64,000 nucleotides of DNA from an uncultured Mesohalobacter sp. (lineage in GTDB: Bacteria > Bacteroidota > Bacteroidia > Flavobacteriales > Flavobacteriaceae). The DNA lies in contig CAZQKB010000012.1 of NCBI GenBank assembly GCA_964593755.1, forward strand, positions 14,665 through 78,664, in the 5' to 3' direction. Shown here in pieces: positions 1 through 15,584 of this stretch. The position numbers and the translations under genes are program-made. The stretch's first letter is position 1; each line of letters opens with the position of its first letter. A model generated the notes under the pieces. That model searched no databases. It was not told where the DNA came from and saw nothing but the letters and a program-made list of their open reading frames with translations.

Positions 1-1
1 T

Positions 2-259
2 AAGTCATACGAATGCATATTAAAATTTGTTCGTAAAGAAAAAAAGCTTGTTCCTAAAAACTATTACAGAAATCTATGGATTGCCATTGGGATGTCGAGC
101 TTTGGTGTACCTATAGGCGTAGCTTTTGGGTTATCTTTGGATAACATGGCATTTTTAGGGGTTGGGCTGCCTATTGGAATGGTAATTGGAATGGCCGTTG
201 GAGCAAGCATGGATAATAAGTCACAAAAAGAAGGGAAACAACTGGATATTGATATTTAA
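2..259 (+). CDS. Partial (5'-truncated by window) conserved membrane protein
   Basis: Open frame from window start: KSYECILKFVRKEKKLVPKNYYRNLWIAIGMSSFGVPIGVAFG...GLPIGMVIGMAVGASMDNKSQKEGKQLDIDI*. Two Gly-rich hydrophobic segments. Translated by hand, not in the ORF track. Confidence 0.8.
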   Translation, partial: KSYECILKFVRKEKKLVPKNYYRNLWIAIGMSSFGVPIGVAFGLSLDNMAFLGVGLPIGMVIGMAVGASMDNKSQKEGKQLDIDI

Positions 260-583
260 GAACCTTTTGAAGATGAAAGTCTTTTTTATAATCAACAAAA
301 TAATATTATGGCTTTGGCCTGGTCTCCAATAGGCGGTATATTTAAGATGAATGAAGACTCAAAACTAAACAAACACCTCGATTTACTCGCAGACAAGTAT
401 AGCTGTTCGAAATCTCAAATAGCTTTATCCTGGTTAATGGGTCATCCCGCAAAAATCTATCCTGTGCTTGGCACTTCAAAACCGGAACGTATTAAAGAAT
501 CAATAGATAGTATTGAGATAAGTTTAGAACTTCAGGATTAGTTTTTACTTTACAAATGTGCCAGAGAGAAAGCAGTTGATTAG
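260..583 (+). pseudogene. Aldo/keto reductase (YdhF/YcsN-like) C-terminal remnant
   Basis: EPFEDESLFYNQQNNIMALAWSPIGG...SQIALSWLMGHPAKIYPVLGTSKPERI...LELQD*FLLYKCAREKAVD*. These are AKR C-terminal motifs. The N-terminal two thirds are missing, and a TAG at 539-541 sits where W is expected. Confidence 0.8.
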
Positions 584-601
584 AACTAAAGTTGCATTGA
601 A

Positions 602-1261
602 ATGAATAAACCATCTAAAAAAACCTGGCCAACTAAAGCCGCTATGCAACAAATTTATGAGCTAAATCTTTGGGGCAAACAAGGTGTTGATTTTTATTCA
701 GGTGATGGTTCTCATAATCCTAAACTGGTATACCCATATATTGATCAGGTCTGCAAATTCCTGAAAGCGTTTAAAGCGCCTATTTCTGTTTGTGATCTAG
801 GCTGTGGTGATTTTAATGTTGGTAGGCAGTTGATAGAATTTACGCAGGAATATACTGCTGTTGACATTGTTCCGGAGCTTATATCTCATCTTGAAACTTC
901 ATTCAAGACGCCAAATTTAAATTTTCTTAGCTTAGACATCGCCAAAGACCAACTCCCAGAAGCAGACTGTGCCATTCTTAGACAAGTCCTTCAACATCTT
1001 TCTAATGATGAAATCATTGAGATAACCAAGAAATTAAACTTATATCAGTTTATAATATTGACTGAACATCTACCTACTGGCGATTTTATTCCGAATAAAG
1101 ATATCATTTCCGGACAAGGTATTCGACTTAAAAAACAAAGTGGAGTCGATTTATTAGAAGCGCCTTTCAATTTGAAAGTTAAGTCTCAGAGAACTTTACT
1201 TTCAATACCTCTTGAAGCCAAAAAAGGTAAAATTGAAACGGTTTTATATAAAATGTGGTAA
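602..1261 (+). CDS. Class I SAM-dependent methyltransferase
   Basis: VCDLGCGDF motif I, followed by acidic AVDIV and LRQVLQHL. Confidence 0.85.
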   Translation: MNKPSKKTWPTKAAMQQIYELNLWGKQGVDFYSGDGSHNPKLVYPYIDQVCKFLKAFKAPISVCDLGCGDFNVGRQLIEFTQEYTAVDIVPELISHLETSFKTPNLNFLSLDIAKDQLPEADCAILRQVLQHLSNDEIIEITKKLNLYQFIILTEHLPTGDFIPNKDIISGQGIRLKKQSGVDLLEAPFNLKVKSQRTLLSIPLEAKKGKIETVLYKMW

Positions 1262-1410
1262 ACAGAGAAATAAATACCAGTATTATATTTGGTCTAGTCT
1301 TAAAGTCTTTTTTAAATATGGCTTTTTAGGAAATTTTCTTCATGGTTAGTGGAATTTCTACTAACACAAACATGGATAAAATAAGAAGCCAATGGTTGAA
1401 AAATCAAAAA

Positions 1411-3741
1411 TCAATCCGTATAATTCAATCTAAATCTGCGTTGAAGCCTTTCTCCATCTTCAGTCACGATAGTCAATACATGTTCACCGGCTTCCGGCTG
1501 AAAATTCATATTGTGGAAATATTGGGTTGAGCCTATATATTGATCATTCAAGTGCCAATACAGTACTTTATCCTGAGCATAAGCTGCTTTAAAGACTACT
1601 TCAGAAGTTTCTCCTTCAAGTGTTTTGGGAAGAATGATATCCTGATAGGGTTCAGGGTAAATTAAAGCCATACCTTCTTTAGTTTGCGATTTGCAATCGG
1701 GGTGAAAATCCGGTAGGGCTTTATAATCAGGATGCTGCTTTTCATAGTAATAGCTAATGATGGATGGTAAAACAAACCAGGAAGTAGTTATCATATTGTT
1801 TTGAAAACCGCAATTTAAATTGACCTGATAGTTTTTGTCCTGACTCAAATTGACAATCTTATGGTATGGACATGGCTTGAGCTTAAGTGTCGTATTTGGA
1901 ATATCTGTTTCAAAAGTTGAAGGACAATTTAGAGACGCTATAGATCCACTTTTTTCACAAACCTCAATAATTTTCATACCATAAATCGGTTTTTCAAACC
2001 AGGTTGATTTTGAAGGTAAGTTTTCAAAAACTGAAAACATCAAAGGTGCGGCTGCATTAACGCCAACCAATTCGGGTCGTCCGGTACCGTCTGCATTGCC
2101 AATCCAAACACCAACCACATAATCGGGCGTAATACCAATAGACCAGGCATCTTTAAACCCGTAACTTGTTCCTGTTTTCCAGGCGATTTTTTTGCTGTTG
2201 GCAAAAGCTTTCCAGCCTGCATCAAGCCCCGGACGTTCGAGACCGGTCATAGCTTCAAACATCAGGTAAATCGAAGCCGGGCTTAGGATTTGTGATGAAG
2301 ATTTGACATTCGTCGCAGAATGGTTTTTAAATATGTTCAGGTCTGAGAATTCTTTTGTTAATGTACCATCATTTGGTGGTGCTTTGAGTTGCATGGCCAG
2401 ATTGGTATACATTCGTGTTAATTCCCAAAGGCTGGATTCTGCACCACCAAGAATAAGCGGCAAACCGTAATGGTCAGCGCTTTTGTCAATACTTTTTAAG
2501 CCAAGCTTTTGGAGCTTATTGAGGAAACGTTCAATGCCGTAATTTTTCAGTAACCTAACCGCAGGTACGTTAAGCGATTTTTGGATAAACACATCGGCCT
2601 TAACAGCACCTTGAAAATTCTTATTGAAATTTTGAGGCGCATAATTATCAAAATGTATGGGCGTATCCTGCACCAACTGTTCCGGCAGAAGCTCACCGTC
2701 TTCCAGCATACTACCGTATAAAATAGGTTTGAGTAAACTGCCTGTACTTCGTTGACTTCTCAGCATATCCACATAGTAAAATGGCGCTTGACTGAAAGTT
2801 GAATTTGCCGTATAGGCTAAAACTTCACCAGTATTGACATCAGTGACAATAACAGCGGCATTGTAAACCTGGTTATTTTTCCAAATATTAAGGTGTTTAG
2901 CCACCTGAGCATTGACTTCTTTTTGGGTGTTATAGTCAATCGTGGTTTGCTTTTGACTAATCTCAGATGTTTGTCTGATCCATTCGGTAAGATGAGGTGA
3001 ATGGTTGGGTAAATCCATAGCTTTACCGGGCAAGTCTTCAAGCAATGCCAGTTTGTAGGTCAATGAATCTATGATCTCATTGTGGTAAAGTTTTTTGAGT
3101 AATCGGTCTCGTTTTGATCTGAAAATAAGCTCATTTTTTCCTGGGAAAACCAAAGACGGTGCATTGGGTAAAACGGCCAGGGCTGCCGACTGAGACCAGC
3201 TCAATTCTTTAGCAGGTAGATTATAGTAACGCCAGGAAGCTGTCTCAAGACCTACAACATTTCCTCCAAAAGGCGCATAAGTCGCATAAAATTTGAGGAT
3301 TTCATCTTTAGAATAATGCGCCTCCAGACTGGTCGCCAAAAAAAGTTCTATGAGCTTTTCAAGATAGGTTCTGGGCTTATTTTTTCGCGATAACCTGATG
3401 ACCTGTTGACTTAGGGTACTTCCACCTCTTTTGGTATCTGCGGTGAGGTTATGCCATAAAGCTTTACCCATAGAAACAGGATTAAACCCAAAATGGACAT
3501 CAAAATATTCATCTTCAAAATAGATGATGCTGGCTTTGAATTTTTCCGGGACGCTATCGCTTGCCGGAAATCGCCATTGTCCATCTGAAGCCACTCTGGC
3601 GCCGAGAAGTTTGTCTTCTTTGCTCCAAACTACAGTTGATAATGGGGTTTTAAATAGTGGTTTGGGTAAGGCATACCACCATAGTAATCCTAATATCAGA
3701 ATTATAACTATTACAATGTATTTTTTTTTTGGTTTGGGCAT
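1411..3741 (-). CDS. pbpC: Penicillin-binding protein 1C
   Basis: N-terminal TM, DGQWRF, transglycosylase EDxxF/GGSTLSQQ, transpeptidase SLLK/SLN/KTG, and a C-terminal PBP1C extension. Confidence 0.93.
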   Translation of the reverse strand: MPKPKKKYIVIVIILILGLLWWYALPKPLFKTPLSTVVWSKEDKLLGARVASDGQWRFPASDSVPEKFKASIIYFEDEYFDVHFGFNPVSMGKALWHNLTADTKRGGSTLSQQVIRLSRKNKPRTYLEKLIELFLATSLEAHYSKDEILKFYATYAPFGGNVVGLETASWRYYNLPAKELSWSQSAALAVLPNAPSLVFPGKNELIFRSKRDRLLKKLYHNEIIDSLTYKLALLEDLPGKAMDLPNHSPHLTEWIRQTSEISQKQTTIDYNTQKEVNAQVAKHLNIWKNNQVYNAAVIVTDVNTGEVLAYTANSTFSQAPFYYVDMLRSQRSTGSLLKPILYGSMLEDGELLPEQLVQDTPIHFDNYAPQNFNKNFQGAVKADVFIQKSLNVPAVRLLKNYGIERFLNKLQKLGLKSIDKSADHYGLPLILGGAESSLWELTRMYTNLAMQLKAPPNDGTLTKEFSDLNIFKNHSATNVKSSSQILSPASIYLMFEAMTGLERPGLDAGWKAFANSKKIAWKTGTSYGFKDAWSIGITPDYVVGVWIGNADGTGRPELVGVNAAAPLMFSVFENLPSKSTWFEKPIYGMKIIEVCEKSGSIASLNCPSTFETDIPNTTLKLKPCPYHKIVNLSQDKNYQVNLNCGFQNNMITTSWFVLPSIISYYYEKQHPDYKALPDFHPDCKSQTKEGMALIYPEPYQDIILPKTLEGETSEVVFKAAYAQDKVLYWHLNDQYIGSTQYFHNMNFQPEAGEHVLTIVTEDGERLQRRFRLNYTD

Positions 3742-3908
3742 TGGATTAATCTTTGGAGCTCATTGATTGGTTTAGTTTAGATCTTACAGGTTTACCTCCA
3801 AAGGCGGAAAAAGTTAATAACTGTTAAGTATTGAACTATCAATTAAACATATTTTTCAGACCTTTTTATCTTCTTTCTCTAGTTCTAGACCTCAACTTTG
3901 GGGTTTTT

Positions 3909-3971
3909 AAAATAACCTTTTTAAAGTGGCTTGTCATTTTATGATCTCGGACTTCAAGTTCGAGCGATCGG
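3909..3971 (-). repeat. Cassette-end element copy A (palindrome + degenerate terminator)
   Basis: aaaataacctttttaaagtggcttgtcattttatgatctcggacttcaagttcgagcgatcgg aligns with copies at 4563 and 6988. It lies just after the RelE stop. Confidence 0.8.
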
Positions 3972-3977
3972 TTTTGT

Positions 3978-4279
3978 TTAGTACTCTAATGGACTTCTTT
4001 TAATATGTCTAACTCTTACAATAACAATTTCTTTTTTCTTTATTTGATAGGCTACTCTTAAACTATATTTCTTAAAGTCTCTAATATTTCCATTGTTATT
4101 TTAAGATATTTATCTAAAGGATAACATGTTGGAGCTTTGGAAAGAGATTTGGTAATTCCTAATATTTCTATCTTTACTTTTTCTGCAGACTGTACGGACT
4201 CTTCTTTGATGTAGTTATAATGATCTTCTAGAGCTTTCTGAGCTGTTTTACTCCAAACAACTTTTAACTCTTCTACCAT
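3978..4279 (-). pseudogene. RelE/ParE-family toxin, frameshifted
   Basis: MVEELKVVWSKTAQKALEDHYNYIKEES..A.KV...YPLDKYLK, then an A missing in an A-run near 4100. The shifted frame continues NNNGNIRDFKKYSLRVAYQIKKKEIVIVRVRHIKRSPLEY* to 3978. Confidence 0.85.
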
Positions 4280-4503
4280 TCTTTAGCCATTTTTTCTGCT
4301 TCTTCTTGTGTATAAAATTCACCCTTTTCTACTTCAGTAATAGCCTCATCGATTTCTTTATTGTATTGCTCTAAACTATCACGCTCTAAAATTTCTTCAT
4401 CACTGTAGGTTTTAGCCATAGCTTTTACAAGTTTTAAAAACCTATCATCTGCTTTATACTTGATATAGTCTAAAACACTTTTTCTCAAATCTATAGATTC
4501 CAT
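4273..4503 (-). CDS. Putative type II antitoxin (partner of RelE/ParE)
   Basis: 76 aa, acidic, ends EIDEAITEVEKGEFYTQEEAEKMAKEW and overlaps the toxin start. Confidence 0.8.
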   Translation of the reverse strand: MESIDLRKSVLDYIKYKADDRFLKLVKAMAKTYSDEEILERDSLEQYNKEIDEAITEVEKGEFYTQEEAEKMAKEW

Positions 4504-4562
4504 AACAATATTATGATTGGTATCGCTAATTTACAAAATTTGATCATAACTAATTCTGAATA

Positions 4563-4629
4563 TAAAAAACACCTCAAAAAAGGTGGCTCATCACTTTAAA
4601 ATCTCGAACTACAGGTCAGAGCTATCGGG
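4563..4629 (-). repeat. Cassette-end element copy B
   Basis: cacctcaaaaaaggtggctcatcactttaaaatctcgaactacaggtcagagctatcggg, 49/60 identical to copy C. It supplies the stop codon of the 4622-4996 gene. Confidence 0.85.
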
Positions 4630-4996
4630 CAGAAAACTGCATATTAATAATGGTGTCTAGTCCTTCTCGTTTTAAATGAATATTTAATTTACCGGATTCT
4701 TTATTTAATGTGTCTCCGACCTCAATTAAATTAAAAAGCCCGCCTTTTTCCCAGTCCAATATAACCACTTCTTCTTTTCCATTATCATTCAAAATAATTT
4801 TATGGTATCCATGTTCTTTGACATCTATATATCTTTTAGTAACTATTCCAGAGAATTCTTTAGCTTTATAGACATCAATAACTTCTTCAAGACTTCTTTT
4901 AGGACTTGGAACCTCAGCAGAAAACCAGTATATAACTCCAAAAAAACCTATAATAGCAGAGATTTTCCAAATCTTAAAAAATGTTTTTTTTTGCAT
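4622..4996 (-). CDS. Putative immunity protein for Rhs tip 2 (N-terminal TM anchor)
   Basis: 124 aa, single N-terminal TM. Starts 6 bp after the reconstructed Rhs tip stop. Function inferred from position only. Confidence 0.6.
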   Translation of the reverse strand: MQKKTFFKIWKISAIIGFFGVIYWFSAEVPSPKRSLEEVIDVYKAKEFSGIVTKRYIDVKEHGYHKIILNDNGKEEVVILDWEKGGLFNLIEVGDTLNKESGKLNIHLKREGLDTIINMQFSAR

Positions 4997-5002
4997 TTAA
5001 TT

Positions 5003-5977
5003 CTATTTTTTAGGAATATATGTTTTAGTTAGCCAATTTATATAACCTAAATCTGCTCCTATACCGATTGAACCCGAATAGTACCTAAAGTAAATCACTT
5101 CTAAAGGCTGCATCACTTACCCCTGTTGAGTCACCAACTGGACCAATTCCAAGTCCTACTTCAAAACCTTGTCCTCTAAGGTTTGATCGGTAAATATAAT
5201 CAGTAGAGATTGTAGATGTTTTCAAAGCTTGGAAAGCTTCTAGTTGTGCCCCAAAGGCAAATCCTGATTCATAAGTAGCTTTTGTAGTCAAATAAGATGT
5301 GCTACCATCTCTGTCAGATAATATTCCAAAATCAACGCCTAGGCCATATGGGTCTGTATCTCTAAACCGAAAAGGAAAAGCAACTTCAAAGCTTACACCA
5401 AAACCATGTACCCCGTATTCATGATGCAAATGTGCATCATTGGCTATTATATCCCATTGTGACTTTCTTGAAGAAATCCTGCTTAAAGATTTTTGCACCT
5501 GTGTAGCTACTTCTTTTTTGGCATTATTTTCAGATGACTTATCACCTACTGTAATCGTTACTTCATCTAATTGTTCCGCAAAATCATCTGATATAACAAT
5601 ATGTTCTGTTAGTTCTTGAACACTAGCATGTTGATTTCTGCTTAAATGTTGTATAAAAGCATTTATTTCACTTTGATCGGTTAGTATATATTCTCCATTC
5701 GAGCCAATTTCATATAGACCACTTGAATCACTATAAAGTATTGGGTTATTAAAACCAAATCGATAAGGTGTTAGGGAAGTAGCAAATTCTGCCAGTCTAT
5801 CCATACAATAAAACCTACCAATTGCAGTATCATATTGTCTAAAAGTCATTTCCTGAACATTTAAATTCAATGACTCATCAAACTGCTGTCCGTTAAATGT
5901 AAACTTCTGCCCAATACTTGTGGAAGTTGCTACACTATTATACCCTTTATGTTCAAGCCCAAAAGGATAGTAGTTTA
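5003..5977 (-). pseudogene. Orphan Rhs core C-terminus + toxin tip 2, frameshifted near its C-terminus
   Basis: NYYPFGLEHKGYN...FNGQQ...RQYDTAIGRF...TPYRFGFNNPILYSDSSGL is the Rhs-associated core signature. No Rhs body upstream. The ORF stops at 5085, but another frame continues FRYYSGSIGIGADLGYINWLTKTYIPKK* to 5003. Confidence 0.85.
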
Positions 5978-6100
5978 TGCATTTTTTTTCCGCATAGTGC
6001 CTTTTTTCAGAGTATACTATCTCTAGAAAAATACAAAAATCAGTATCGAGTTTATGCCACCCCATGGTGGTGTAAAGGTATTTATTTTTCTCTTAATTAG

Positions 6101-6120
6101 GGCTTTAGTCGTCTTCAAAA
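6101..6120. repeat. 20-bp direct repeat, copy 1
   Basis: ggctttagtcgtcttcaaaa, 18/20 identical to 6944-6963. Confidence 0.65.
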
Positions 6121-6222
6121 AAAAACCTAATTTCCGCCCCCATGATAAAAGGGCAAAGGCAAGAAAACAGTCCATACGATTCTGTCAGGATTGTTTTTTG
6201 AGTGGTGAGATTATTTGTTTTT

Positions 6223-6567
6223 CTAACTTCGTTTTGTTTTCTTGTTGGGATTTTGTCGGGTTGGGAAAAAATCGGTAACGTAAACTGTTCTTTTAGCTTC
6301 GTCAATGAAGTAGATGATTTTAACCGTGTTTCGTTTGGTTACGTGGTAAATTAAAGCTCTAAATTCTTTGTCGTAACGCGCCAAGTCTTCTTCTAAACGT
6401 CCTCTTTCAGGATTGTTCTTTAAAGACATCGCCAGATTTATAATATCATCTTATTTTTTATTAGCACTTCCTACACTATGAGATTCGTATAAATGCGATA
6501 ATAAATTCCAGTAATACTGCTCGGCATTTGAGGTGATCTCTACTATATAGCTTGTTTGCTCTTCCAA
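6223..6567 (-). pseudogene. ParE/RelE-family toxin with internal stop
   Basis: TTG start overlapping the antitoxin end: MEEQTSYIVEITSNAEQYYWNLLSHLYESHSVGSANKK*DDIINLAMSLKNNPERG...FRALIY...KIIYFIDEAKRTVYVTDFFPTRQNP. In-frame TAA at 6451-6453. Confidence 0.85.
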
Positions 6568-6785
6568 TGGTCTATATCGGCTTTAAATTCTGTTATAGGT
6601 CTTGTTTCGCCGTTTTCTAATGCTTTTAAAGAGGCTTCCGCACGCTCTTGAAGGTTTGATATATCAGAAGAATAAAATGTATTGGATTCTTCTTCAAAAA
6701 CTTGTTTTAGCTTTAATAGTAGACTTTCTTCTTTTGCCTGTAGTAACAGATGCATTAATTCTAATTTCGTGGTTTCGATATTCAT
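6543..6785 (-). CDS. Putative type II antitoxin
   Basis: MNIETTKLELMHLLLQAKEESLLLKLKQVF...RAEASLKALENGET. TATATTTG -7 box just upstream. Overlaps the toxin gene. Confidence 0.8.
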   Translation of the reverse strand: MNIETTKLELMHLLLQAKEESLLLKLKQVFEEESNTFYSSDISNLQERAEASLKALENGETRPITEFKADIDHWKSKQAI

Positions 6786-6943
6786 AATACTGTCTTTTAT
6801 CATAACAAATATAATGTAATATTTTTGCTTAACTGATTGGATGCAAGGCATTAACAATTTCATGGAAATAGTCTATATCATCGTTAAGGATGATTTCGGG
6901 GTAACTGCAGTAATCTTATCCTAACTTTGATCTTTTTTTTGAA

Positions 6944-6963
6944 GGCTCTAGTCGTCTTCCAAA
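6944..6963. repeat. 20-bp direct repeat, copy 2
   Basis: ggctctagtcgtcttccaaa. Confidence 0.65.
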
Positions 6964-6987
6964 AGAACGTCACTTCGCTTTAGTGCA

Positions 6988-7056
6988 TAAAAAAACCACC
7001 TCAATAAAGGTGGCTTATCACTTTATTATCTCAGACTACAAGTCCGAGTGTTCGGG
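6988..7056 (-). repeat. Cassette-end element copy C (palindrome + intrinsic terminator)
   Basis: Minus strand: CCCGAACA CTCGGACT-TGT-AGTCTGAG ATAATAAAGTGATAA GCCACCT-TTATTG-AGGTGGT TTTTTT. It starts 1 bp after the stop of the 7058-7468 gene. Confidence 0.85.
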
Positions 7057-7057
7057 T

Positions 7058-7468
7058 TTATTTAACCCATCTAAAACCACTATACTTTTCGCTAATCAAT
7101 AATTTTTTATCGCTTTGTAATAATACTTGAAATATATAAAATACTAAAAGCAAAACCCTATCAAAAAGCACTAATGTTGAGTATATTAAAAATGATTTAT
7201 TTAATCTTATTTGTTTACTGAATTTAATTGAAACTCCAAAAAGCTTCATTCCTAAAGTCCTATTAAAATAGAATTCCGTTAATGTATAATATAGAAAATA
7301 AATTAATAATCTAAATAACCAAGGTGTATCAATTTCTAAAAAAGACAGAATTGAACTACTATTTAATATTGAAATCAAAGCAATAATAAATATATAATCT
7401 ATGAACATAATTATTACTTTTGACTTCTTACTTATTTCAATAAGCCCTTTATTTTCATCTATATTCAT
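7058..7468 (-). CDS. RDD-family membrane protein, putative immunity for Rhs tip 1
   Basis: FIDYIFII...YFLYYTLTEFYFNRTLGMKLFG resembles the RDD pattern. ATGA overlap with the reconstructed toxin tip stop. Confidence 0.65.
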   Translation of the reverse strand: MNIDENKGLIEISKKSKVIIMFIDYIFIIALISILNSSSILSFLEIDTPWLFRLLIYFLYYTLTEFYFNRTLGMKLFGVSIKFSKQIRLNKSFLIYSTLVLFDRVLLLVFYIFQVLLQSDKKLLISEKYSGFRWVK

Positions 7469-8353
7469 TTTATTACTTTCTGTTCCTTTTGTTCGCGTTT
7501 CTTTTTTGATTCCTCTTGTAGTTTCGTAAACTTCTCGCTGTTAAACGAAAATGAAATACCTATACCTAATTTTAATTTATTTTCTGCCTCTGGAGGAGAA
7601 ACTTCAGTAATGCCATCGTCATTCTCATTTATATTTTCTGTTACTACTACTCCTTTTTCGCCATTTTTTATTTTTAGCAAATACAGCTACCGAACCTCCT
7701 TCTTTATCTCCATCTTTAATTATAACTCCATCAGCTTTAACAAAGCCACCTTCGCCTTCATTTGTATCAAAATTCTTTGAAGCATAAGCAACCTTTAATT
7801 CGCTTTTTACAGCATCTTTACTATCACCAACACCTGCAAATGCATCTATAGCAGTAAAAGAAAAAGTATTTGTTTTAATATTATATTCAGTTTCTGCTAC
7901 ACTTGCTGTAGCTCCTGTATTTGAAATTTTAGCACCTGCACCTAAAGAGATACTTACAGAAGTAACTGAAATTGATTCCCATGCATTCTTAATAAAATCC
8001 AAACATTCCGGACAATCACCATAAGGATCATTATACCGAATAGGACTATTAAAAGCATACTGATATGGACTCAGACTTTCTTGAGGGCTAGTATCAGCCA
8101 ATGGATCTACACTCTTAAATCTACCTAGTGTATAATCATAAGTTCTAAATATAGTCATGTCAAGATTATGACCTAAATCTAACTGTCGCTCTACCTTAAA
8201 AGATTTACCTTCTTCACCTTGAAAATTCTTATCACTTGTTCCTTGATTGAACTCATAATTCTGTGCTGGGTTCGTAGAAGTTACCACATTATTATACCCT
8301 TTATGTTTAAGTCCAAAGGGGTAGTAGTCATTTCTTCTCAGATTATTCATCAA
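7465..8353 (-). pseudogene. Orphan Rhs core C-terminus + toxin tip 1, frameshifted
   Basis: NDYYPFGLKHKGYNNVV...RTYDYTLGRFKSVDPLAD...SPYQYAFNSPIRYNDPYG. One extra A in an A-run near 7675 splits it into ORFs 7625-8353 and 7465-7680; removing it gives FAKIKNGEKG. Confidence 0.85.
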
Positions 8354-8358
8354 CTATA

Positions 8359-11300
8359 TTACTCTAAAACTTTCACTTTCGAATCTTTAGTCCTCGCAAA
8401 ATAAGCATTGCTATACATCGTCTCAGCCTGGCTTCCGGGCAGGAAATATTCGCCCAGATATGAGGCGTTCATTTTTACACTAAAGCTTTTGGTTTTTTTG
8501 GCGTCCAAATCCAGGTAAAAGTGGATTTCGCTGTCCCTAATATCGACATAATTTGCTTCCGGGTAGCTGTCAGTCTGGTAGTCTGTAAACGAGGTGTCCA
8601 CCACTTCCCAGCCGCTCGGCAAATGGTACTGTAAAGCCAAGTGTCTTAAGTCGGTTTGGGACAGGTTGCCGATATTTATCGTTACATTCACCTCTGAGCC
8701 TTGTCTAACCTCATTAATATTCATCGGCTTGCCATTGGCATCGGTGTAAGCTATATTCAGACTGAGGTTTTTCTGCTCTGCAAAGGACTCACCGAGAGCA
8801 GGTTTACCATTTTGAACTAATCTTACGAATAGCTTGGTGTCTTTGTTATTTTTCAACTTCAATTTTACTCCTGCGTTTTCTCCTAACTTGATATCTCTTT
8901 TCAGAATAGGTTTATTCGTTTTAACCGATTCACCATTAAAATTAATGTCCATGGCTTTACCGCCATTTTTCTGTAATAACTTAGACAAACTTACTAAAGC
9001 AAAAGCGGTTTCCTGCGTATTGAGATAATCATCTGAAGATAATTTTAAAGCCAGATTTTCTGCTTTTTCCTGCATTCTGTCGTCTTCAAGATAAACCAAA
9101 CTTTCCAGAAGCATCGCCTGATTTCTGAAATCAGAACCATAAGTATAGTATTGGTAAGGGTCATAAACCTCATAAATAGAAGCGGATTCAACAATAGATT
9201 TTGCCACATCTTTTTGACCAATTAAAGCATAAGCCTGTGCCAGTCGCCATTTTGAAGCATTAGAAATTTTAGTATTTCTCAGTCTATTCATCGAAGCCAA
9301 ATCAGCATCTCCGAGTAACGCTAAAGTGTAAAGCCGGTAAGCCTGCATATAGTCTGAAGGTCGGCTGTAAGTATTTTCATTCCATCGGCGGGCTTGCTCT
9401 TTTTGAAAGTTTTTCCAATTATTCAAAAACATCATTGGAATATTGAATCCTTTACGCTGGGCTTCTATCATAAAATGCCCGGCATAGCTGGTGCCCCATT
9501 CATTGGCGCTTCCGCCGGGCCAGTAGCTCAAACCACCGCTAACCAGTTGAAAATCATTCAACTTCTCTATGGCTTTCTGTACATTCCTTTTGGTTTCCTC
9601 TTTTTGGCTAAAGCTTAAATCTGCGATATCTTCCAGGTAGATTTGTGGAAATGCTTTTGAAGTCGTCTGCTCAACACAACCATGTGGATAGCCAATTAAT
9701 CTGGATAAGCGCTTACTCAAATCCATTGGTGGCAAAGCAGAAATTTCGACAAAAGCTGAATTGGTTCCTTTTGTACCAAAAGACTTTTCATCTATACTTA
9801 AGCTTTCATTGGACCCAAGCTCAAAGTTTTTGGTTTTTTGAGCCATTGGGTTCGGGTTATAAGTATCGATTTCAAGTGTATATTTCGCCGTTTCTCTTCC
9901 TGATGTGGCTGTAAATTTTAAATTTTCAATGCTTGAAGAAGACACCACTTCGTAATCAAAGTTCACGATTTTATCGCCGGTTTCCATAAAGCTGAGGGTT
10001 TGTTCTGTTGGGCCAACAGGCTTAATTCCGGAACTGACCTCTGCAGTTAGTGTCACCTTTTTAATTTCGTCTTCCATGGCAAAAACCGTAAGCGGAATGC
10101 TTAGTTTTTCGCCTGGTGATAATTTTCTGGGTACCGAAGCCAAAAGCATCAACGGTTTTTTGACGGGAACCACCTCTTCTACACTGCCATAGCTTTCGCT
10201 GGCCACATCAGACGCCACCAGCATGACTTTTACCGAACCGATATAATTTGGCATATAGAGTTTATGCTTTTTACTTTCCCCTGCTTTCAACTCAAATGGT
10301 CCTATAAAGCTTACTACAGGCTTAAAGCGATTGGCTTTTCTGTTTTTTGAGCCTGCCAGACTACCACCACCACCAATGCTGAAAATATTCTCTACACTAC
10401 CGGCATAAGCGCCAATGACATCATCATAAATGTCAAAAGTCTGCACACCAAGGGCTTCTTTACGGTTGAAATACTCGTAGATGTCCGGCACACTAAAGTT
10501 GGTCAAATCCAACAGGCCTTCATCAACCACGGCAATTGTATAGGTCATGGGTTTGCCGTTTTGTTCGGTTACTTGTATGTTGTAACTGGTTTCAGGTCTG
10601 ATCTTTTCAGGTACATTAAGTTCAGGACTTAAACGTTTATCTTGATTTTCAACCTTGAGCGGAACTACCCCAAAAAGCCTGATCGGTCTGTCATTTTCTG
10701 TTCGCTGATGCGGCTGGATGAAGCTTAAACTCACATAGGCGTTTGGTGTGAATTCCTCAGTGATTTTCAGATCTAACGTAGTCGTACCGCTTTGGGTCTC
10801 TACCCATTCCTGACTCAGAATACCTGAACCATTTTCAACTGTAAGCAATGCTTTAGCTCCCTGACTTGAAGGGAAAGTCACTTTTGCGGTTTCTCCAACA
10901 TTATATTGGTCTTTGTCTAAATTGAAAACCAACATATTAGCCAGATTACCTTCTGTGTTTGTCCACCAGTTTTTGTAATAATAAGCAATTTGACTTGCTG
11001 CATGTTTACCCTTTTCATCGATCACACGAATCAAATATCGTCCTCTGTCTCGCTGAGGAATATTAAGCTTAAAACTGGCCATACCTCTGGCATCTGTGGT
11101 CAGGTCAAAACTTTTATAAGCGCGATAACTTGAGCTGTTTTGGTATTTGGAGAGGTTATCACTTCCACGGTTCCACCACCAACGCCAGTCTAATCTATAG
11201 ATGTAAGCTTTTAAGGGTTTTGAAGCCACTGGTTTTCCGCTTTTATCAACACTTATCACACGATACAAAGTTTCCTCGTCTGTATCGTAAGTTCTGCCTT

Positions 11301-13842
11301 TGATATCCGGTGATCTTAAGCCGACAAAATGTTCAAAAGGCGCCAGGTTTTTCTGCGTAACATTGATGGAAAAATCACCGCCGTTTTCATAGACTTTGGT
11401 CAGAAAACTTAATTTGAGCATTCCGGGCAGATTCTGGGAAGTCTCAATATTCTTTTGAATGTTTATAAGTCCTTCATCATTCAACTTTCCTTTAAAAAAA
11501 TCCATTTCCTGATCATTAAACGAACGCGTAATGTCGTAAAAGCTATAGGTCTTGAGCTTTGGAAACGGATGAGTTGCGATGCTCATGTTCATTTCGACCT
11601 CAGCTTTGAGTTTTCTGGCGGTGGCACCGCTTAACCAGTTTGAAGTCAATACAGCATTAATGGGCTCATTGGCAGGTAATACATCGTCTTCAAAATCCAG
11701 TTTGATTTTAAGCCGGTTTGGCTTTACAGCTGCAACCTTTATACGTTTATTGAATGTTACTGCGCCGATATTGATTTCAGCATTCCAGTTTCCGGTTGGG
11801 TCTGTGGCTTTGGTTGGCAGACTAAAGGTGTAAACCTTATTCAATCCCTGAAGCTGGGTTTCGTCATAAACCAATTTGCCTCTGGCATCTGTGAGTTTCA
11901 ATTTTATCGGATAATTTTCTGGAATCGGGTTAGCCAGGTCATTCAACACAAAACCGGTGTAGATAGTATCCCCTGGTCTATAAACACCTCTTTCTGTATA
12001 AATATAGCCTTTAAGTCCTTTTTTGATTTCACTTCCACCAACATCAAAATTACTTAAACTTAAAGCCTGATTTTTGTTCAACTTCAAATAAGCATATTGG
12101 TTGTTTTTTTGAGCTACAACAAATGCAATGTTCTTATTGGATTTGAGCTGTGCCATACCCTGTGCATTTGTAGAAACCTGAGATACTTCCTGCATTTGGT
12201 AGTTGTAGCCTGCAATATTCACACTACCTTCTGGTTGAGCAGACAGCAAATTTGAGGTATAAATATGGTAAACATCTGTCTTGGTTTTTTTGACCAGGAG
12301 TCCAAGGTCTGAAGCTAAAATATTGGCCGTTAAAAACCTGTTTTGATTGTAATAAGCATCATCACAGGGATTATCGCGCTCTCTCCAGTTATACCTGTAA
12401 TTTCGCCAATCGTATCTTTGGTAGTCCCAGTAGTCTTCCTCACGTTCTATGGTTTGCGTATCCTCTTCGATACTCGTAAAGGTGTAATCGGTTTTAGAAT
12501 CGTCGCAACTGTAAAGACTTAATTCTGGTCTAAAGCTGATGTCAACCTGATAAAGTGCGCCTGGGTCAGCTTTAAATAATTGGTTTAAATCTATCGCATA
12601 GGCTTTCCAAAAGCCATCATGATCTAATTTGTTTTGCACTAATGGAATGGTCTTTCTGGCCACGACACGACCTACATTTCGCAACCTGTAGTTGTTACTG
12701 TCGTCAAGATTGGCATCCTGTAAAAACTGAAGCACATTGTTTTCATAAATCTTAATGATCCTCACATCGACAGCCTTCAAACCCGTAGCTTCAAAATAAA
12801 AAGGATTTTCTGTAGAATTGGGTAAAATTACACCTTCTGTGATTAATCTTATACTGGGCTTAGACTGATTGAACAATACTTTCTCCTTAAAATCTGCTTT
12901 TAGAGATTTACCCTGAATGCTTTTAATATTTTTTAAAATTTGAAGAGTCACGGCGCCATTGTATGCTTTTTTAGGATAAACGATCAGGTTATTGCCTTCT
13001 ATATCAAAATTCAAATCCCTGTCTTCATTAATTTGGATGAGTCCTATCAAAGATTGACCATTCTGAAGGGTCTGAGAAAAATTGACAGTAATTTTTGGGC
13101 TTCCTAGGCCTTCAGTAGTTATATCTAAAACTTTAAACACATCTTTGGCCGGTATAACAAAAGAATTTTCCCCTTTGTTCTCTGCATTTATGGGGCTTCC
13201 ATTCCAATTAAGTTGTACTGTTGATTCTTGGTCAGAACGCTTTATGCTGTCGATTTTAAATCTGAAATAGGTAGCTGTTTCATTGGTCTGAGACCATTTT
13301 ATTGATAGTTGTTTGTCCGATTGTGCAGCTGTAACAATTTTCTTTACATCTTCAAAAGGCACTAAATCTGAAGTTTCTATACTGGCATTTCTGTAAGACC
13401 ATTCTTTGTCGTAAGATTCTAAAGCTTCAAGACTGACTTTAAAATCCGGCTCTATGGTTGAAAGTGTAAAACTGTAGTTTTTATAACCGCTTTCAATTGA
13501 TGGGTAAAGTTTGTCGAGGTGTAAAAGGCCTTCGTATGTTTGCCCTGGTTTCAAATGCTCTTTTGGTGAAAAAATTAAATTCCTGTCGGTTGAAAGGTAA
13601 AGCTTACCTTCAACTTTAGGCTTAAATTCAAGAATCTCAGGATCTAATTCCTGATTAATTGATTTGTTTTTGACAGGATTTACGAATCGAAAAACAACTG
13701 GGTCAGCAATAGAAATTTCACCCTGAGTATGGGAGTAGATGTAATCTTTATATTTGGCTAAGTCACTTTCTTCAGTTGAAGAATCACATTGTATCAAAAG
13801 GGGCAAGAGGCAAAAAAGTAGGAGAAGTTTGGCTGAAGACAT
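8359..13842 (-). CDS. Bacterial alpha-2-macroglobulin (lipoprotein)
   Basis: 1827 aa, lipobox-like LLIQC, YTERGVYRPG, AVVDEG, and an intact thioester motif YPHGCVEQ. Confidence 0.95.
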   Translation of the reverse strand: MSSAKLLLLFCLLPLLIQCDSSTEESDLAKYKDYIYSHTQGEISIADPVVFRFVNPVKNKSINQELDPEILEFKPKVEGKLYLSTDRNLIFSPKEHLKPGQTYEGLLHLDKLYPSIESGYKNYSFTLSTIEPDFKVSLEALESYDKEWSYRNASIETSDLVPFEDVKKIVTAAQSDKQLSIKWSQTNETATYFRFKIDSIKRSDQESTVQLNWNGSPINAENKGENSFVIPAKDVFKVLDITTEGLGSPKITVNFSQTLQNGQSLIGLIQINEDRDLNFDIEGNNLIVYPKKAYNGAVTLQILKNIKSIQGKSLKADFKEKVLFNQSKPSIRLITEGVILPNSTENPFYFEATGLKAVDVRIIKIYENNVLQFLQDANLDDSNNYRLRNVGRVVARKTIPLVQNKLDHDGFWKAYAIDLNQLFKADPGALYQVDISFRPELSLYSCDDSKTDYTFTSIEEDTQTIEREEDYWDYQRYDWRNYRYNWRERDNPCDDAYYNQNRFLTANILASDLGLLVKKTKTDVYHIYTSNLLSAQPEGSVNIAGYNYQMQEVSQVSTNAQGMAQLKSNKNIAFVVAQKNNQYAYLKLNKNQALSLSNFDVGGSEIKKGLKGYIYTERGVYRPGDTIYTGFVLNDLANPIPENYPIKLKLTDARGKLVYDETQLQGLNKVYTFSLPTKATDPTGNWNAEINIGAVTFNKRIKVAAVKPNRLKIKLDFEDDVLPANEPINAVLTSNWLSGATARKLKAEVEMNMSIATHPFPKLKTYSFYDITRSFNDQEMDFFKGKLNDEGLINIQKNIETSQNLPGMLKLSFLTKVYENGGDFSINVTQKNLAPFEHFVGLRSPDIKGRTYDTDEETLYRVISVDKSGKPVASKPLKAYIYRLDWRWWWNRGSDNLSKYQNSSSYRAYKSFDLTTDARGMASFKLNIPQRDRGRYLIRVIDEKGKHAASQIAYYYKNWWTNTEGNLANMLVFNLDKDQYNVGETAKVTFPSSQGAKALLTVENGSGILSQEWVETQSGTTTLDLKITEEFTPNAYVSLSFIQPHQRTENDRPIRLFGVVPLKVENQDKRLSPELNVPEKIRPETSYNIQVTEQNGKPMTYTIAVVDEGLLDLTNFSVPDIYEYFNRKEALGVQTFDIYDDVIGAYAGSVENIFSIGGGGSLAGSKNRKANRFKPVVSFIGPFELKAGESKKHKLYMPNYIGSVKVMLVASDVASESYGSVEEVVPVKKPLMLLASVPRKLSPGEKLSIPLTVFAMEDEIKKVTLTAEVSSGIKPVGPTEQTLSFMETGDKIVNFDYEVVSSSSIENLKFTATSGRETAKYTLEIDTYNPNPMAQKTKNFELGSNESLSIDEKSFGTKGTNSAFVEISALPPMDLSKRLSRLIGYPHGCVEQTTSKAFPQIYLEDIADLSFSQKEETKRNVQKAIEKLNDFQLVSGGLSYWPGGSANEWGTSYAGHFMIEAQRKGFNIPMMFLNNWKNFQKEQARRWNENTYSRPSDYMQAYRLYTLALLGDADLASMNRLRNTKISNASKWRLAQAYALIGQKDVAKSIVESASIYEVYDPYQYYTYGSDFRNQAMLLESLVYLEDDRMQEKAENLALKLSSDDYLNTQETAFALVSLSKLLQKNGGKAMDINFNGESVKTNKPILKRDIKLGENAGVKLKLKNNKDTKLFVRLVQNGKPALGESFAEQKNLSLNIAYTDANGKPMNINEVRQGSEVNVTINIGNLSQTDLRHLALQYHLPSGWEVVDTSFTDYQTDSYPEANYVDIRDSEIHFYLDLDAKKTKSFSVKMNASYLGEYFLPGSQAETMYSNAYFARTKDSKVKVLE

Positions 13843-14209
13843 GTTGAAATTTGAAATATTTTTGTAAATAATGTTTAATTATATGGGGCTTTTAATATAT
13901 AAACGCCTAATCCTTTTAAAAGTATAAAAAATCAATGAAAATTTTGAATTTATTTGTTTTTGGATGCGCAATTTTTTTTTCAATAAGTATTTATTAAGAT
14001 TTCAAGTGGTTTATTGGAGTTTATCGAAATGTTATAGGTTTAATCTATTAAATTATTTTCTCGCAAACCAGTCTGTCCGTCAGGCAGGGGCGCTAAGATA
14101 TTTCGTGGTATTGAGTTCAATCAATAGAAACAGTGAGCCTTAATTTCATTAGTCCTTTAATATTATAAAAGGCTTAAGTAGTGGTTTTTACGCCTGTTTC
14201 CGAAGAAAT

Positions 14210-15241
14210 TTACTTAAAAATCATAATAGCCTTTTCTCCATTTTTATCTATTGAGGCTCTAAACATTCCCGGTGTATTAAAGACCATCGAAATATTGCCG
14301 TCTTTATCTAAAGCCACAATCCCGCCATTACCACCAAGTTCAGGTAGCTTTTTCATGATTACATCTTCCGCAGCATCCTGCAGGCTTGCGTTTTTATACT
14401 GCATTTGTGCAGAAATATCATGAGCCACTGCCAGGCGGATAAAGTACTCACCCCAGCCTGTTGAAGACACACCGCAGGTGGCATTATTGGCATAGGTTCC
14501 GGCGCCAATGATGGGTGAATCTCCAATACGGTTCCAACGCTTGTTGGTCATGCCTCCGGTAGAAGTACCTGCGACAATGTTACCGTCTTTGTCTAAAGCT
14601 ACACAACCCACAGTTCCAAATTTTTTGTCTTCCCAATCCAGTAAAGCGGTTTTGTTTTGAGCACGTTTTAAAGCTTCAAGCCGTGATGGCGTTGAAAAAT
14701 AGGCCGTATCTACCATTTTTATATTTCTGGATTCTGCAAATTCCTGTGCACCTGAACCGGATAAGAGCACATGGTCGGAATTTACCATAACTTCATAAGC
14801 CAAATTGATTGGATTTTTAACGTTGGTTACACCGGCAACAGCACCTGCATTGAGGGTTTTGCCGTCCATGATAGAAGCGTCCAGTTCATTGTAGCCTTCG
14901 TGATTAAAAACCGCACCCTTACCGGCATTAAATAATGGCGAGTCCTCTAAAATATTGATTGTGCGCTGAACCGCCTCCATAGCTGTTCCGCCTTCTTTTA
15001 AAATAGAATGCCCTTTTGAAATGGCTTCGTTGAGTTTGGCTTTATATTCTTCTTGCTGCTCTTTGCTCATTCTATCTCTGGACATGACTCCTGCACCACC
15101 GTGAATTACAATAGCTATCGGTTTTTCTTCAGTAATTGTACTTGTTTCAGAGATTGTTTCAGTAGGGCTGTCCTTTTGATTTTGGCAGGCAAAACAAATA
15201 AAAGCCAAAAGTGAAAGAGAAAATAAAATAGATTTTTTCAT
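14210..15241 (-). CDS. iaaA: Isoaspartyl peptidase/L-asparaginase (Ntn hydrolase), lipoprotein signal
   Basis: IHGGAG, FNAGKGAV, ELDASIMDG, GTVGCVA nucleophile Thr, TSTGG, RIGDSP. Confidence 0.92.
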   Translation of the reverse strand: MKKSILFSLSLLAFICFACQNQKDSPTETISETSTITEEKPIAIVIHGGAGVMSRDRMSKEQQEEYKAKLNEAISKGHSILKEGGTAMEAVQRTINILEDSPLFNAGKGAVFNHEGYNELDASIMDGKTLNAGAVAGVTNVKNPINLAYEVMVNSDHVLLSGSGAQEFAESRNIKMVDTAYFSTPSRLEALKRAQNKTALLDWEDKKFGTVGCVALDKDGNIVAGTSTGGMTNKRWNRIGDSPIIGAGTYANNATCGVSSTGWGEYFIRLAVAHDISAQMQYKNASLQDAAEDVIMKKLPELGGNGGIVALDKDGNISMVFNTPGMFRASIDKNGEKAIMIFK

Positions 15242-15428
15242 AATGAGCGCTTTAAATTATAATGTCATTTTTAATTAAAAGATTGCTTAAAGATACACTC
15301 AAAAAATTAAATCTATAAGCCCTTAACTAAGTTGTTTTGGATAATTTATTTATGGAAAACTGATCCTTATCATATTTACAATGAACATTCCTTAATATTT
15401 TTGACATTCTTTTTTAATACCATAAACT

Positions 15429-15584
15429 ATGCAATATTTAATCCCTTTTGTAGACTGGACAAACGGTGCCGTCATCATGACCCTGATCTTTGGTTTGGTG
15501 ATCTTTGGTCTTGTTTTCTTTGTGATGTATTTCATCAACTCCGCTGCCAAAAAAGAGCGTGAGAAAAAAAGTAAGAAAGCTTAA
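15429..15584 (+). CDS. Small single-TM membrane protein (51 aa)
   Basis: MQYLIPFVDWTNGAVIMTLIFGLVIFGLVFFVMYFINSAAKKEREKKSKKA*: TM helix plus Lys-rich tail. Below the ORF-track cutoff. Confidence 0.7.
   Translation: MQYLIPFVDWTNGAVIMTLIFGLVIFGLVFFVMYFINSAAKKEREKKSKKA

What the first reader, a model, noticed from the sequence alone, without database searches (positions are those of the whole stretch)
3978..8353. All four toxins are broken, all four protective genes are intact
Seen: Rhs tip 1 has +1 A near 7675, Rhs tip 2 has a frameshift near 5090, RelE has -1 A near 4100, and ParE has an in-frame TAA at 6451-6453. The partners at 7058-7468, 4622-4996, 4273-4503 and 6543-6785 are uninterrupted. 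Inference: selection may keep only immunity and antitoxin functions, making this an immunity or anti-addiction store. At least two lesions lie in A-runs, so slippage-based reactivation or sequencing error is possible. Toxin ORFs are also longer targets for mutation.
Basis: partly seen in the sequence, partly recalled or inferred. Interest (0 to 1): 0.7.

Follow-up and report, generated by a model that had tools for sequence, protein, structure and literature searches.

The report
Wreck of a toxin-tip swapping element
The four toxin genes here each carry one real break while their partner genes read open, likely because this is the decaying remnant of a mobile element that loses its toxins first, and the intact form of that element in related bacteria is predicted to swap the toxic ends of Rhs proteins by inserting at one short site.

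Summary
All four breaks are in re-assembled contigs of the same sample and are confirmed against intact homologs; the four partners are full length. The 'protective store' reading is only partly supported. Toxin-first decay is routine in this genus: 8 of 18 other RelE/ParE pairs have a broken or missing toxin, none an intact toxin with a broken antitoxin, and 3 have lost both. Each toxin has one lesion and is as constrained as its partner (pN/pS 0.22 vs 0.36; dN/dS 0.12 vs 0.11, 0.10 vs 0.15), so the breaks are recent and show no extra selection on partners. What is really there: a deleted copy of an integrative element (Rhs tip, partner, HTH, primase, two tyrosine recombinases, optional toxin-antitoxin pair, leader). 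Its second recombinase matches 20 of 250 family genomes, and tandem copies begin at the Rhs NYYPFG codons. The window keeps the tip, partner, recombinase tail, TA cargo, leader and site. I found no description of this element in five searches, nor in earlier scan notes; one unread 2026 preprint may cover it.

The parts
8359..13842 (-). alpha-2-macroglobulin gene, upstream flank
   Evidence: Pfam; abuts pbpC in 13 of 14 other genomes with both genes on one locus
8312..8350 (-). degenerate Rhs-core-side junction with DYYPFG (left attachment-like site, inferred)
   Evidence: aligns to IEENNYYPFG of homolog P0002; site classes
7465..8350 (-). Rhs tip 1, frameshifted in 7664-7675; predicted beta-strand toxin domain, activity unknown
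   Evidence: TIGR03696; homolog alignment; homolog model 9 strands pLDDT 58
7058..7468 (-). partner 1, RDD-like membrane protein, open; predicted immunity
   Evidence: homologs; PF06271 in P0004; start overlaps the tip's true stop
6984..7056 (-). repeat copy 1: hairpin plus terminator-like stem and T run
6944..6967 (-). 24-nt direct repeat, copy 1 (second copy 6101-6124)
6829..6915 (-). 3' tail of the element's second tyrosine recombinase gene (remnant)
   Evidence: aligns to the end of the intact 295-aa recombinase of G047; PF00589 for that gene
6806..6813 (-). TATATTTG, matches the Bacteroidota -7 promoter box (consensus recalled)
   Evidence: 0.8 such matches per kb per strand genome-wide, so weak alone
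6543..6785 (-). antitoxin 1, open
   Evidence: 80 aa, same length as G052 copy, dN/dS 0.15
6223..6567 (-). RelE/ParE-type toxin 1, stop at 6451-6453
   Evidence: 87% identical to open G052 copy; that copy PF05016 E 4e-4, under cut-off
5976..6124 (-). element leader (MGxxKLDTDF...KKCIN frame) with second 24-nt repeat
   Evidence: 77-81% identical to the leaders of G047; alignment
5958..5978 (-). NYYPFG site with element-side arm (right attachment-like site, inferred)
   Evidence: same arm as at second tandem copies in G047, G078, G163
5003..5975 (-). Rhs tip 2, 5-base deletion at 5087-5090; inferred to be the displaced host tip
   Evidence: TIGR03696; 60% identical to the end of a 1335-aa DUF6443 Rhs
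4622..4996 (-). partner 2, N-terminal hydrophobic stretch, open; predicted immunity
   Evidence: 48% homolog follows the full-length Rhs in L057
4557..4629 (-). repeat copy 2
4273..4503 (-). antitoxin 2, open
   Evidence: 79% identical to G021 copy, dN/dS 0.11
3978..4279 (-). RelE-type toxin 2, frameshift near 4099-4105
   Evidence: PF05016 in two frames; DNA alignment
3900..3972 (-). repeat copy 3, most decayed
   Evidence: 63% to copy 2; fold
1411..3741 (-). penicillin-binding protein 1C gene, downstream flank
   Evidence: Pfam

Best explanation
This 4.6-kb insert between the alpha-2-macroglobulin and pbpC genes is likely the stranded remnant of an integrative element that would insert at the NYYPFG codons of an Rhs gene, and each of its four toxin genes carries one break that likely arose recently because toxins must be lost before their partners. 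Shown: the parts list, the four breaks, the empty junction in relatives, and the intact unit (tip, partner, HTH, primase, two recombinases, optional TA pair, leader) in related genomes. Inferred: tip 1 and partner 1 are the element's cargo; tip 2 and partner 2 are the host's displaced tip; HTH, primase and nearly all of both recombinases were deleted, as was the host Rhs delivery part; the TA pairs were addiction cargo. Once the DNA could neither move nor deliver a toxin, toxin breaks were neutral or favoured (orphan tips can be expressed inside the cell, and tip 1 starts 8 bases after the macroglobulin stop), while a partner break would be lethal until its toxin was gone. The partners are open mainly because little time has passed.
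For: Intact unit: primase plus two recombinases in 14 of 14 loci examined, Rhs core match in 12 of 14; recombinase 2 in 20 of 250 family genomes; same order in annotated Aureispira and Aureibacter records. Tandem copies start at or within 3 nt of the NYYPFG codons in 4 of 4 tandem loci, host core upstream of the first and leader upstream of the next. Window holds the recombinase tail, TA in the cargo position (as in G048, G143, G221), leader and site. No element primase or recombinase and no DUF6443 Rhs in G000. Genus tally of other RelE/ParE pairs: 10 intact, 5 toxin-only lost, 3 both lost, 0 antitoxin-only, n=18. Same toxin 1 is broken at another codon in G015; a tip 1 homolog ends early at another place while a 96% partner homolog is whole, both with a longest contig of 12,272 nt (same contig inferred). 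Equal constraint on toxins and partners.
Against: One lesion in each of four toxins and none in partners has p about 0.01 under a length-only null, and 7 of 7 other TA toxin matches over cut-off in G000 read open, so something singles out this island. Partner 1 homologs persist alone at 40-54% identity, which fits lasting use without a toxin. The left site is degenerate, and how the piece reached the macroglobulin junction is unexplained. No excision, expression or toxicity was observed. The genus tally is hand-curated and comes from searches with antitoxin, island and recombinase queries; kin are not independent.
Confidence: 0.7

Rival explanations
1. Selected store of immunity and anti-addiction genes: partners are kept because they protect against neighbours' Rhs toxins and incoming elements with the same TA pairs.
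For: All four partners open, one despite a 9-A run; solitary partner 1 homologs in 3 genomes and beside a tip remnant in a fourth; tip 2 relatives circulate in two other studies; antitoxin 1 has a promoter-like box; such stores are proposed or shown elsewhere (passages of PMC3150448, PMC5361080, PMC3482391, PMC7192599).
Against: No excess constraint on partners; no second lesion in 2.5 kb of dead toxin, so none is expected yet in 1.3 kb of partner; 3 of 8 relatives have gone on to lose the antitoxin; the frameshifts end translation 157 and 89 nt before partners 1 and 2, which would weaken coupling (inference); RDD-like proteins may have another job.
Confidence: 0.22
2. Reversible switch: slipped-strand changes in A runs turn toxins on and off.
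For: Two of four breaks lie in A-rich stretches.
Against: Runs are 4-6 long and such runs are common in all eight genes; the other two breaks are a 5-base deletion and a nonsense change; relatives break at other places; no alternative contig in three runs.
Confidence: 0.03
3. Sequencing or assembly error.
For: The genome is assembled from a mat metagenome; the three runs are one sample and their library type is not on record.
Against: Separate contigs of three runs agree letter for letter where they cover; 1 of 406 control ORFs disrupted.
Confidence: 0.02

Closest known systems
Rhs C-terminal displacement arrays with orphan tips (Jackson 2009, PMC2935791; Poole 2011, PMC3150448; Steele 2017, PMC5727410)
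   Same: Core-plus-tip fragments each followed by a partner; tips degenerate by frameshift and stops; Steele reports immunity without toxin but never the reverse, and later decay of orphan immunity genes.
   Different: No full-length Rhs in this assembly. Jackson proposed homologous recombination with an episomal circle and wrote that an integrase was not known with Rhs; Steele saw integrase-like genes nearby. Here a fixed primase-two-recombinase unit has its ends at the NYYPFG codons.
Decaying chromosomal type II TA pairs and orphan antitoxins (PMC7192599)
   Same: RelE/ParE-family toxin broken, upstream antitoxin open; decay or anti-addiction both proposed.
   Different: Here the pairs sit in the cargo slot of the Rhs-linked element.
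Polyimmunity loci and orphan immunity arrays (Zhang 2012, PMC3482391; Kirchberger 2017, PMC5361080)
   Same: Several protective genes in one orientation; link to tyrosine recombinases noted.
   Different: Zhang's loci are never interrupted by toxin genes; this one is, and half its partners are antitoxins.
Tyrosine-recombinase integrative elements with primase
   Same: Short core repeated at both ends, tandem copies, HTH, CHC2/Toprim primase.
   Different: Two recombinases; target inside a toxin gene; cargo rebuilds that gene's end. A proteobacterial look-alike (XerC, primase, HTH, SymE, nuclease-immunity, RelE/ParE) is an 11.3-kb circular record.

Membership tests
Orphan Rhs tip-immunity module | Rhs core domain followed by a variable tip | tested here: met
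   TIGR03696 over cut-off in both
Orphan Rhs tip-immunity module | Same tip and partner occur on a full-length Rhs gene | tested here: met
   tip 2 and partner 2 in L057; for tip 1 only indirect (remnant before partner homolog; matching contig lengths)
Orphan Rhs tip-immunity module | Full-length parent Rhs upstream in the same genome | tested here: not met
   only two cores and no DUF6443 in a 94.9% complete assembly
Orphan Rhs tip-immunity module | Tip is toxic and partner neutralises it | not testable with these tools
Type II TA, RelE/ParE | PF05016 toxin | tested here: met
   toxin 2 over cut-off; toxin 1 only through its open homolog, E 4e-4 and 21.4 bits against cut-off 23
Type II TA, RelE/ParE | Small upstream overlapping antitoxin gene conserved with the toxin | tested here: met
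   no antitoxin family over cut-off
Polyimmunity locus | Immunity genes not interrupted by toxin genes | tested here: not met
   each partner sits beside its toxin gene; definition from PMC3482391 passages
Anti-addiction module | Antitoxin kept by selection after toxin loss | tested here: inconclusive
   equal dN/dS over branches mostly older than the lesion
Anti-addiction module | Neutralises the toxin of an incoming element | not testable with these tools
   needs experiment
Site-specific integrative element | Short core at both ends with host arm left and element arm right | tested here: met
   4 of 4 tandem loci; window right site clear, left site degenerate
Site-specific integrative element | Intact recombinase genes | tested here: not met
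   window has only a tail; met in relatives
Site-specific integrative element | Excised circle | tested here: inconclusive
   no recombinase 2 match in plasmids, no site match in viral contigs; G080:C26 is two units bounded by the site, which fits a circle or a collapsed tandem
REP sequence of a Y1 transposase (label recalled) | Hairpin flanks a Y1 transposase | tested here: inconclusive
   weak hits beside transposase remnants in G019 and G050; not beside the three PF01797 genes of G000
Integron cassette array | attC sites and integron integrase | not tested
   repeat folds as hairpin plus terminator; no attC or IntI test run

The most novel reading that the evidence does not exclude
Bacteroidota carry a widespread, so far undescribed self-replicating integrative element (HTH, CHC2/Toprim primase-helicase, two tyrosine recombinases, TA cargo) whose attachment core is the Rhs NYYPFG codons. 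Each insertion arms the resident Rhs with the element's own tip and immunity gene and pushes the old tip downstream. It is the episomal vehicle proposed in 2009 for C-terminal displacement, and this window is one of its deletion derivatives.
Probability: 0.4. Interest if true: 0.75.

Novelty: new variant of a known kind. Interest (0 to 1): 0.48.

Why it matters
As posed, the finding is an ordinary stage of decay and a caution: broken toxin beside open partner is the forced order of loss, not by itself a sign of a protective store. The parent element matters more. How Rhs toxins get new tips while keeping the old ones has been a hypothesis since 2009; a compact element with a defined core makes it testable by one PCR for circles and one integration assay, and it would explain why tips, partners and TA pairs pile up together in these genomes.

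Tried and rejected
Complex prediction for the natural tip 2 / partner 2 homolog pair was not available, so binding is untested. Fold of the tip 2 homolog was unusable (pLDDT 37). Fold of a tip 1 homolog gave no Foldseek match at E<=0.001 and only generic beta-barrel matches (best Z 9.6, rmsd 4.3, 103 aligned); the Atlas gave Ntox25 at 0.85 for tip 2 and unnamed Bacteroidota clusters for partner 2: leads only, so a membrane-acting toxin remains a guess. No Rfam match. Tip 2 had no homolog but itself among proteins of 179-571 aa. Runs X6 and X11 laid nothing on 5040-5800; runs with small word shares were not used for habitat. I first took the G015 copy of toxin 1 as intact; it has its own stop. 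The automatic recombinase-tail flag returned nothing, so that link was read by hand. Two of 6 genome loci and 1 of 2 metagenome loci were weak hits and dropped; P0013, P0017, P0018 were not used. In one search one row at E 0.036 and six rows from other genera were left out of the genus tally. Genome-wide toxin decay rejected. Paper searches for the element: plus a word search in one Rhs survey, none describing it.
Full report
Setting. The window lies on contig C12 of a 3.58-Mb assembly, 94.9% complete, from a microbial mat metagenome. Named homologs point to Flavobacteriaceae (inference). The stretch 3742-8358 separates the alpha-2-macroglobulin and pbpC genes. These abut in 13 of 14 other genomes with both on one fetched locus; the closest relative G052 has a different RelE-type pair there, and in three more genomes the two genes are unlinked.

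The observation. The four breaks and four open partners are real. Contigs of runs X1 and X2 match 3700-8500 without a difference, and X3 bridges three sites; all are one sample. Only 1 of 406 control ORFs from 32 stretches of G052 is disrupted in this genome. Seven other TA toxin matches over cut-off read open. So the damage is local to the island.

Is it a selected store? A length-only null gives p=0.19 for all four lesions in toxins and 0.010 for one each, but the order of loss is forced. Among 18 other RelE/ParE pairs of the genus that I fetched, 10 are intact, 5 lost only the toxin (one with an antitoxin 8 residues shorter in frame), 3 lost both, and none lost only the antitoxin (hand tally). 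At 8 of 18, two broken TA toxins arise with p about 0.2. Against a contig about 95% identical, tip 2 has pN/pS 0.22 and partner 2 0.36 (Fisher p=0.37). RelE and antitoxin 2 give dN/dS 0.12 and 0.11 against G021; toxin 1 and antitoxin 1 give 0.10 and 0.15 against G052. No toxin has a second lesion. The breaks are therefore recent, and these numbers cannot show selection on partners after them. In favour of lasting use, homologs of partner 1 stand alone in three named genomes and after a short tip remnant in a fourth.

What the island is. The spacers are conserved parts. A 73-nt hairpin-terminator repeat follows three of the modules. The DNA before antitoxin 1 is the 3' end of a tyrosine recombinase gene. 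The DNA before tip 2 is a leader shared with relatives. A search with the recombinase tail led to G047, a one-contig genome of the same genus, where a 1490-aa DUF6443 Rhs gene is followed by two 6.3-kb copies of partner, HTH, primase-helicase part, recombinase 1, recombinase 2, leader, tip; the first copy repeats the tip of the full gene and the last carries a different one. Recombinase 2 matches 20 of 250 family genomes, often in arrays spaced 6-8 kb. I fetched 12 loci from 11 of those 20 plus G047 and G048: all 14 hold primase and both recombinases, 12 an Rhs core match, and three genomes a RelE-type pair right after recombinase 2, all open. In 4 of 4 tandem loci the repeat begins at or within 3 nt of the NYYPFG codons, with host core before the first copy and leader before the second. 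The 22 tips scored in such loci read open for 264-376 residues (open length alone does not prove wholeness). Annotated Aureispira and Aureibacter records show the same order.

Mapping this on the window: degenerate core-side site at 8326, tip 1, partner 1, terminator, deletion, recombinase tail, TA pair, leader, element-side site at 5972, tip 2, partner 2, then a second TA pair. G050 shows the same repeat-tail-TA junction, and lake-water contigs join the repeat straight to the leader, so deletion derivatives are common. G000 has no element primase or recombinase and no full Rhs.

Mechanism. Shown: anatomy, lesions, repeat boundaries. Inferred: site-specific insertion that rebuilds the rhs end and displaces the old tip; TA pairs as addiction cargo; toxin loss after stranding. 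Orphan tips can be expressed and toxic inside the cell (PMC7043789, abstract only), which would favour breaks. Toxin activity is unknown: a homolog of tip 1 models as nine strands at low confidence, and both partners look membrane-bound, so a membrane-acting toxin is a guess; Ntox25 is described as a beta-barrel ionophore (PMC11630599 passages).

Known work. Passages read: PMC2935791 (displacement, episomal circle, degenerate tips), PMC5727410 (toxin lost first, integrases near rhs), PMC3150448, PMC5361080, PMC3482391, PMC7192599, PMC13183296 (orphan tips in a flavobacterium), bioRxiv 2026.07.13.738213. Five searches found no description of the element; the library lacks most subscription papers. 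Jurenas 2026 and Martinkus 2026 were seen only as references and may cover it; no supplements were read. Earlier scan notes hold no look-alike.

Verdict. Observation confirmed; interpretation partly supported; the pattern itself is ordinary decay (about 0.2 alone). The parent element lifts interest to 0.48.

Noticed in passing
window 260-583 +: 3' fragment of an aldo/keto reductase with an internal stop at 539-541; a whole copy lies just upstream at C12:13572-14432.
   Followed up: partly
G000 C6:96864-96950, C2:173273-173349, C5:174373-174424, C7:27795-27825: Further copies of the hairpin repeat between unrelated genes, no Rhs or TA gene beside them.
   Followed up: partly
L052 (G052:C18) 1450-1973: A different, intact RelE-type pair sits at the same macroglobulin-pbpC junction, suggesting a reused insertion spot.
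   Followed up: partly
L172 (G080:C26) 1-15474: The whole contig is two element units with the core site at 22, 7728 and 15434: circle or collapsed tandem array.
   Followed up: no
L159-L162 (G061:C1:672001-752000): Nine tandem primase-recombinase units with changing cargo and no match to my Rhs core reference; may target another toxin class.
   Followed up: no
L060, L061, L062 at 8001-8420: Partner 1 (RDD-like) homologs stand alone between housekeeping genes in three named genomes.
   Followed up: partly
L186 (NZ_CP072857.1): 11.3-kb circular record with XerC, primase, HTH, SymE, nuclease-immunity pair and RelE/ParE pair: a proteobacterial look-alike.
   Followed up: no
window 5954-6114 and 6759-7080 in run X4: Summed contig depth 1700-3000 against 37 on tip 2: many different cassettes share these spacers in that community.
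   Followed up: partly
L024, L126: Y1 transposase genes or remnants with hairpins are mixed into such islands in G019 and G050.
   Followed up: no
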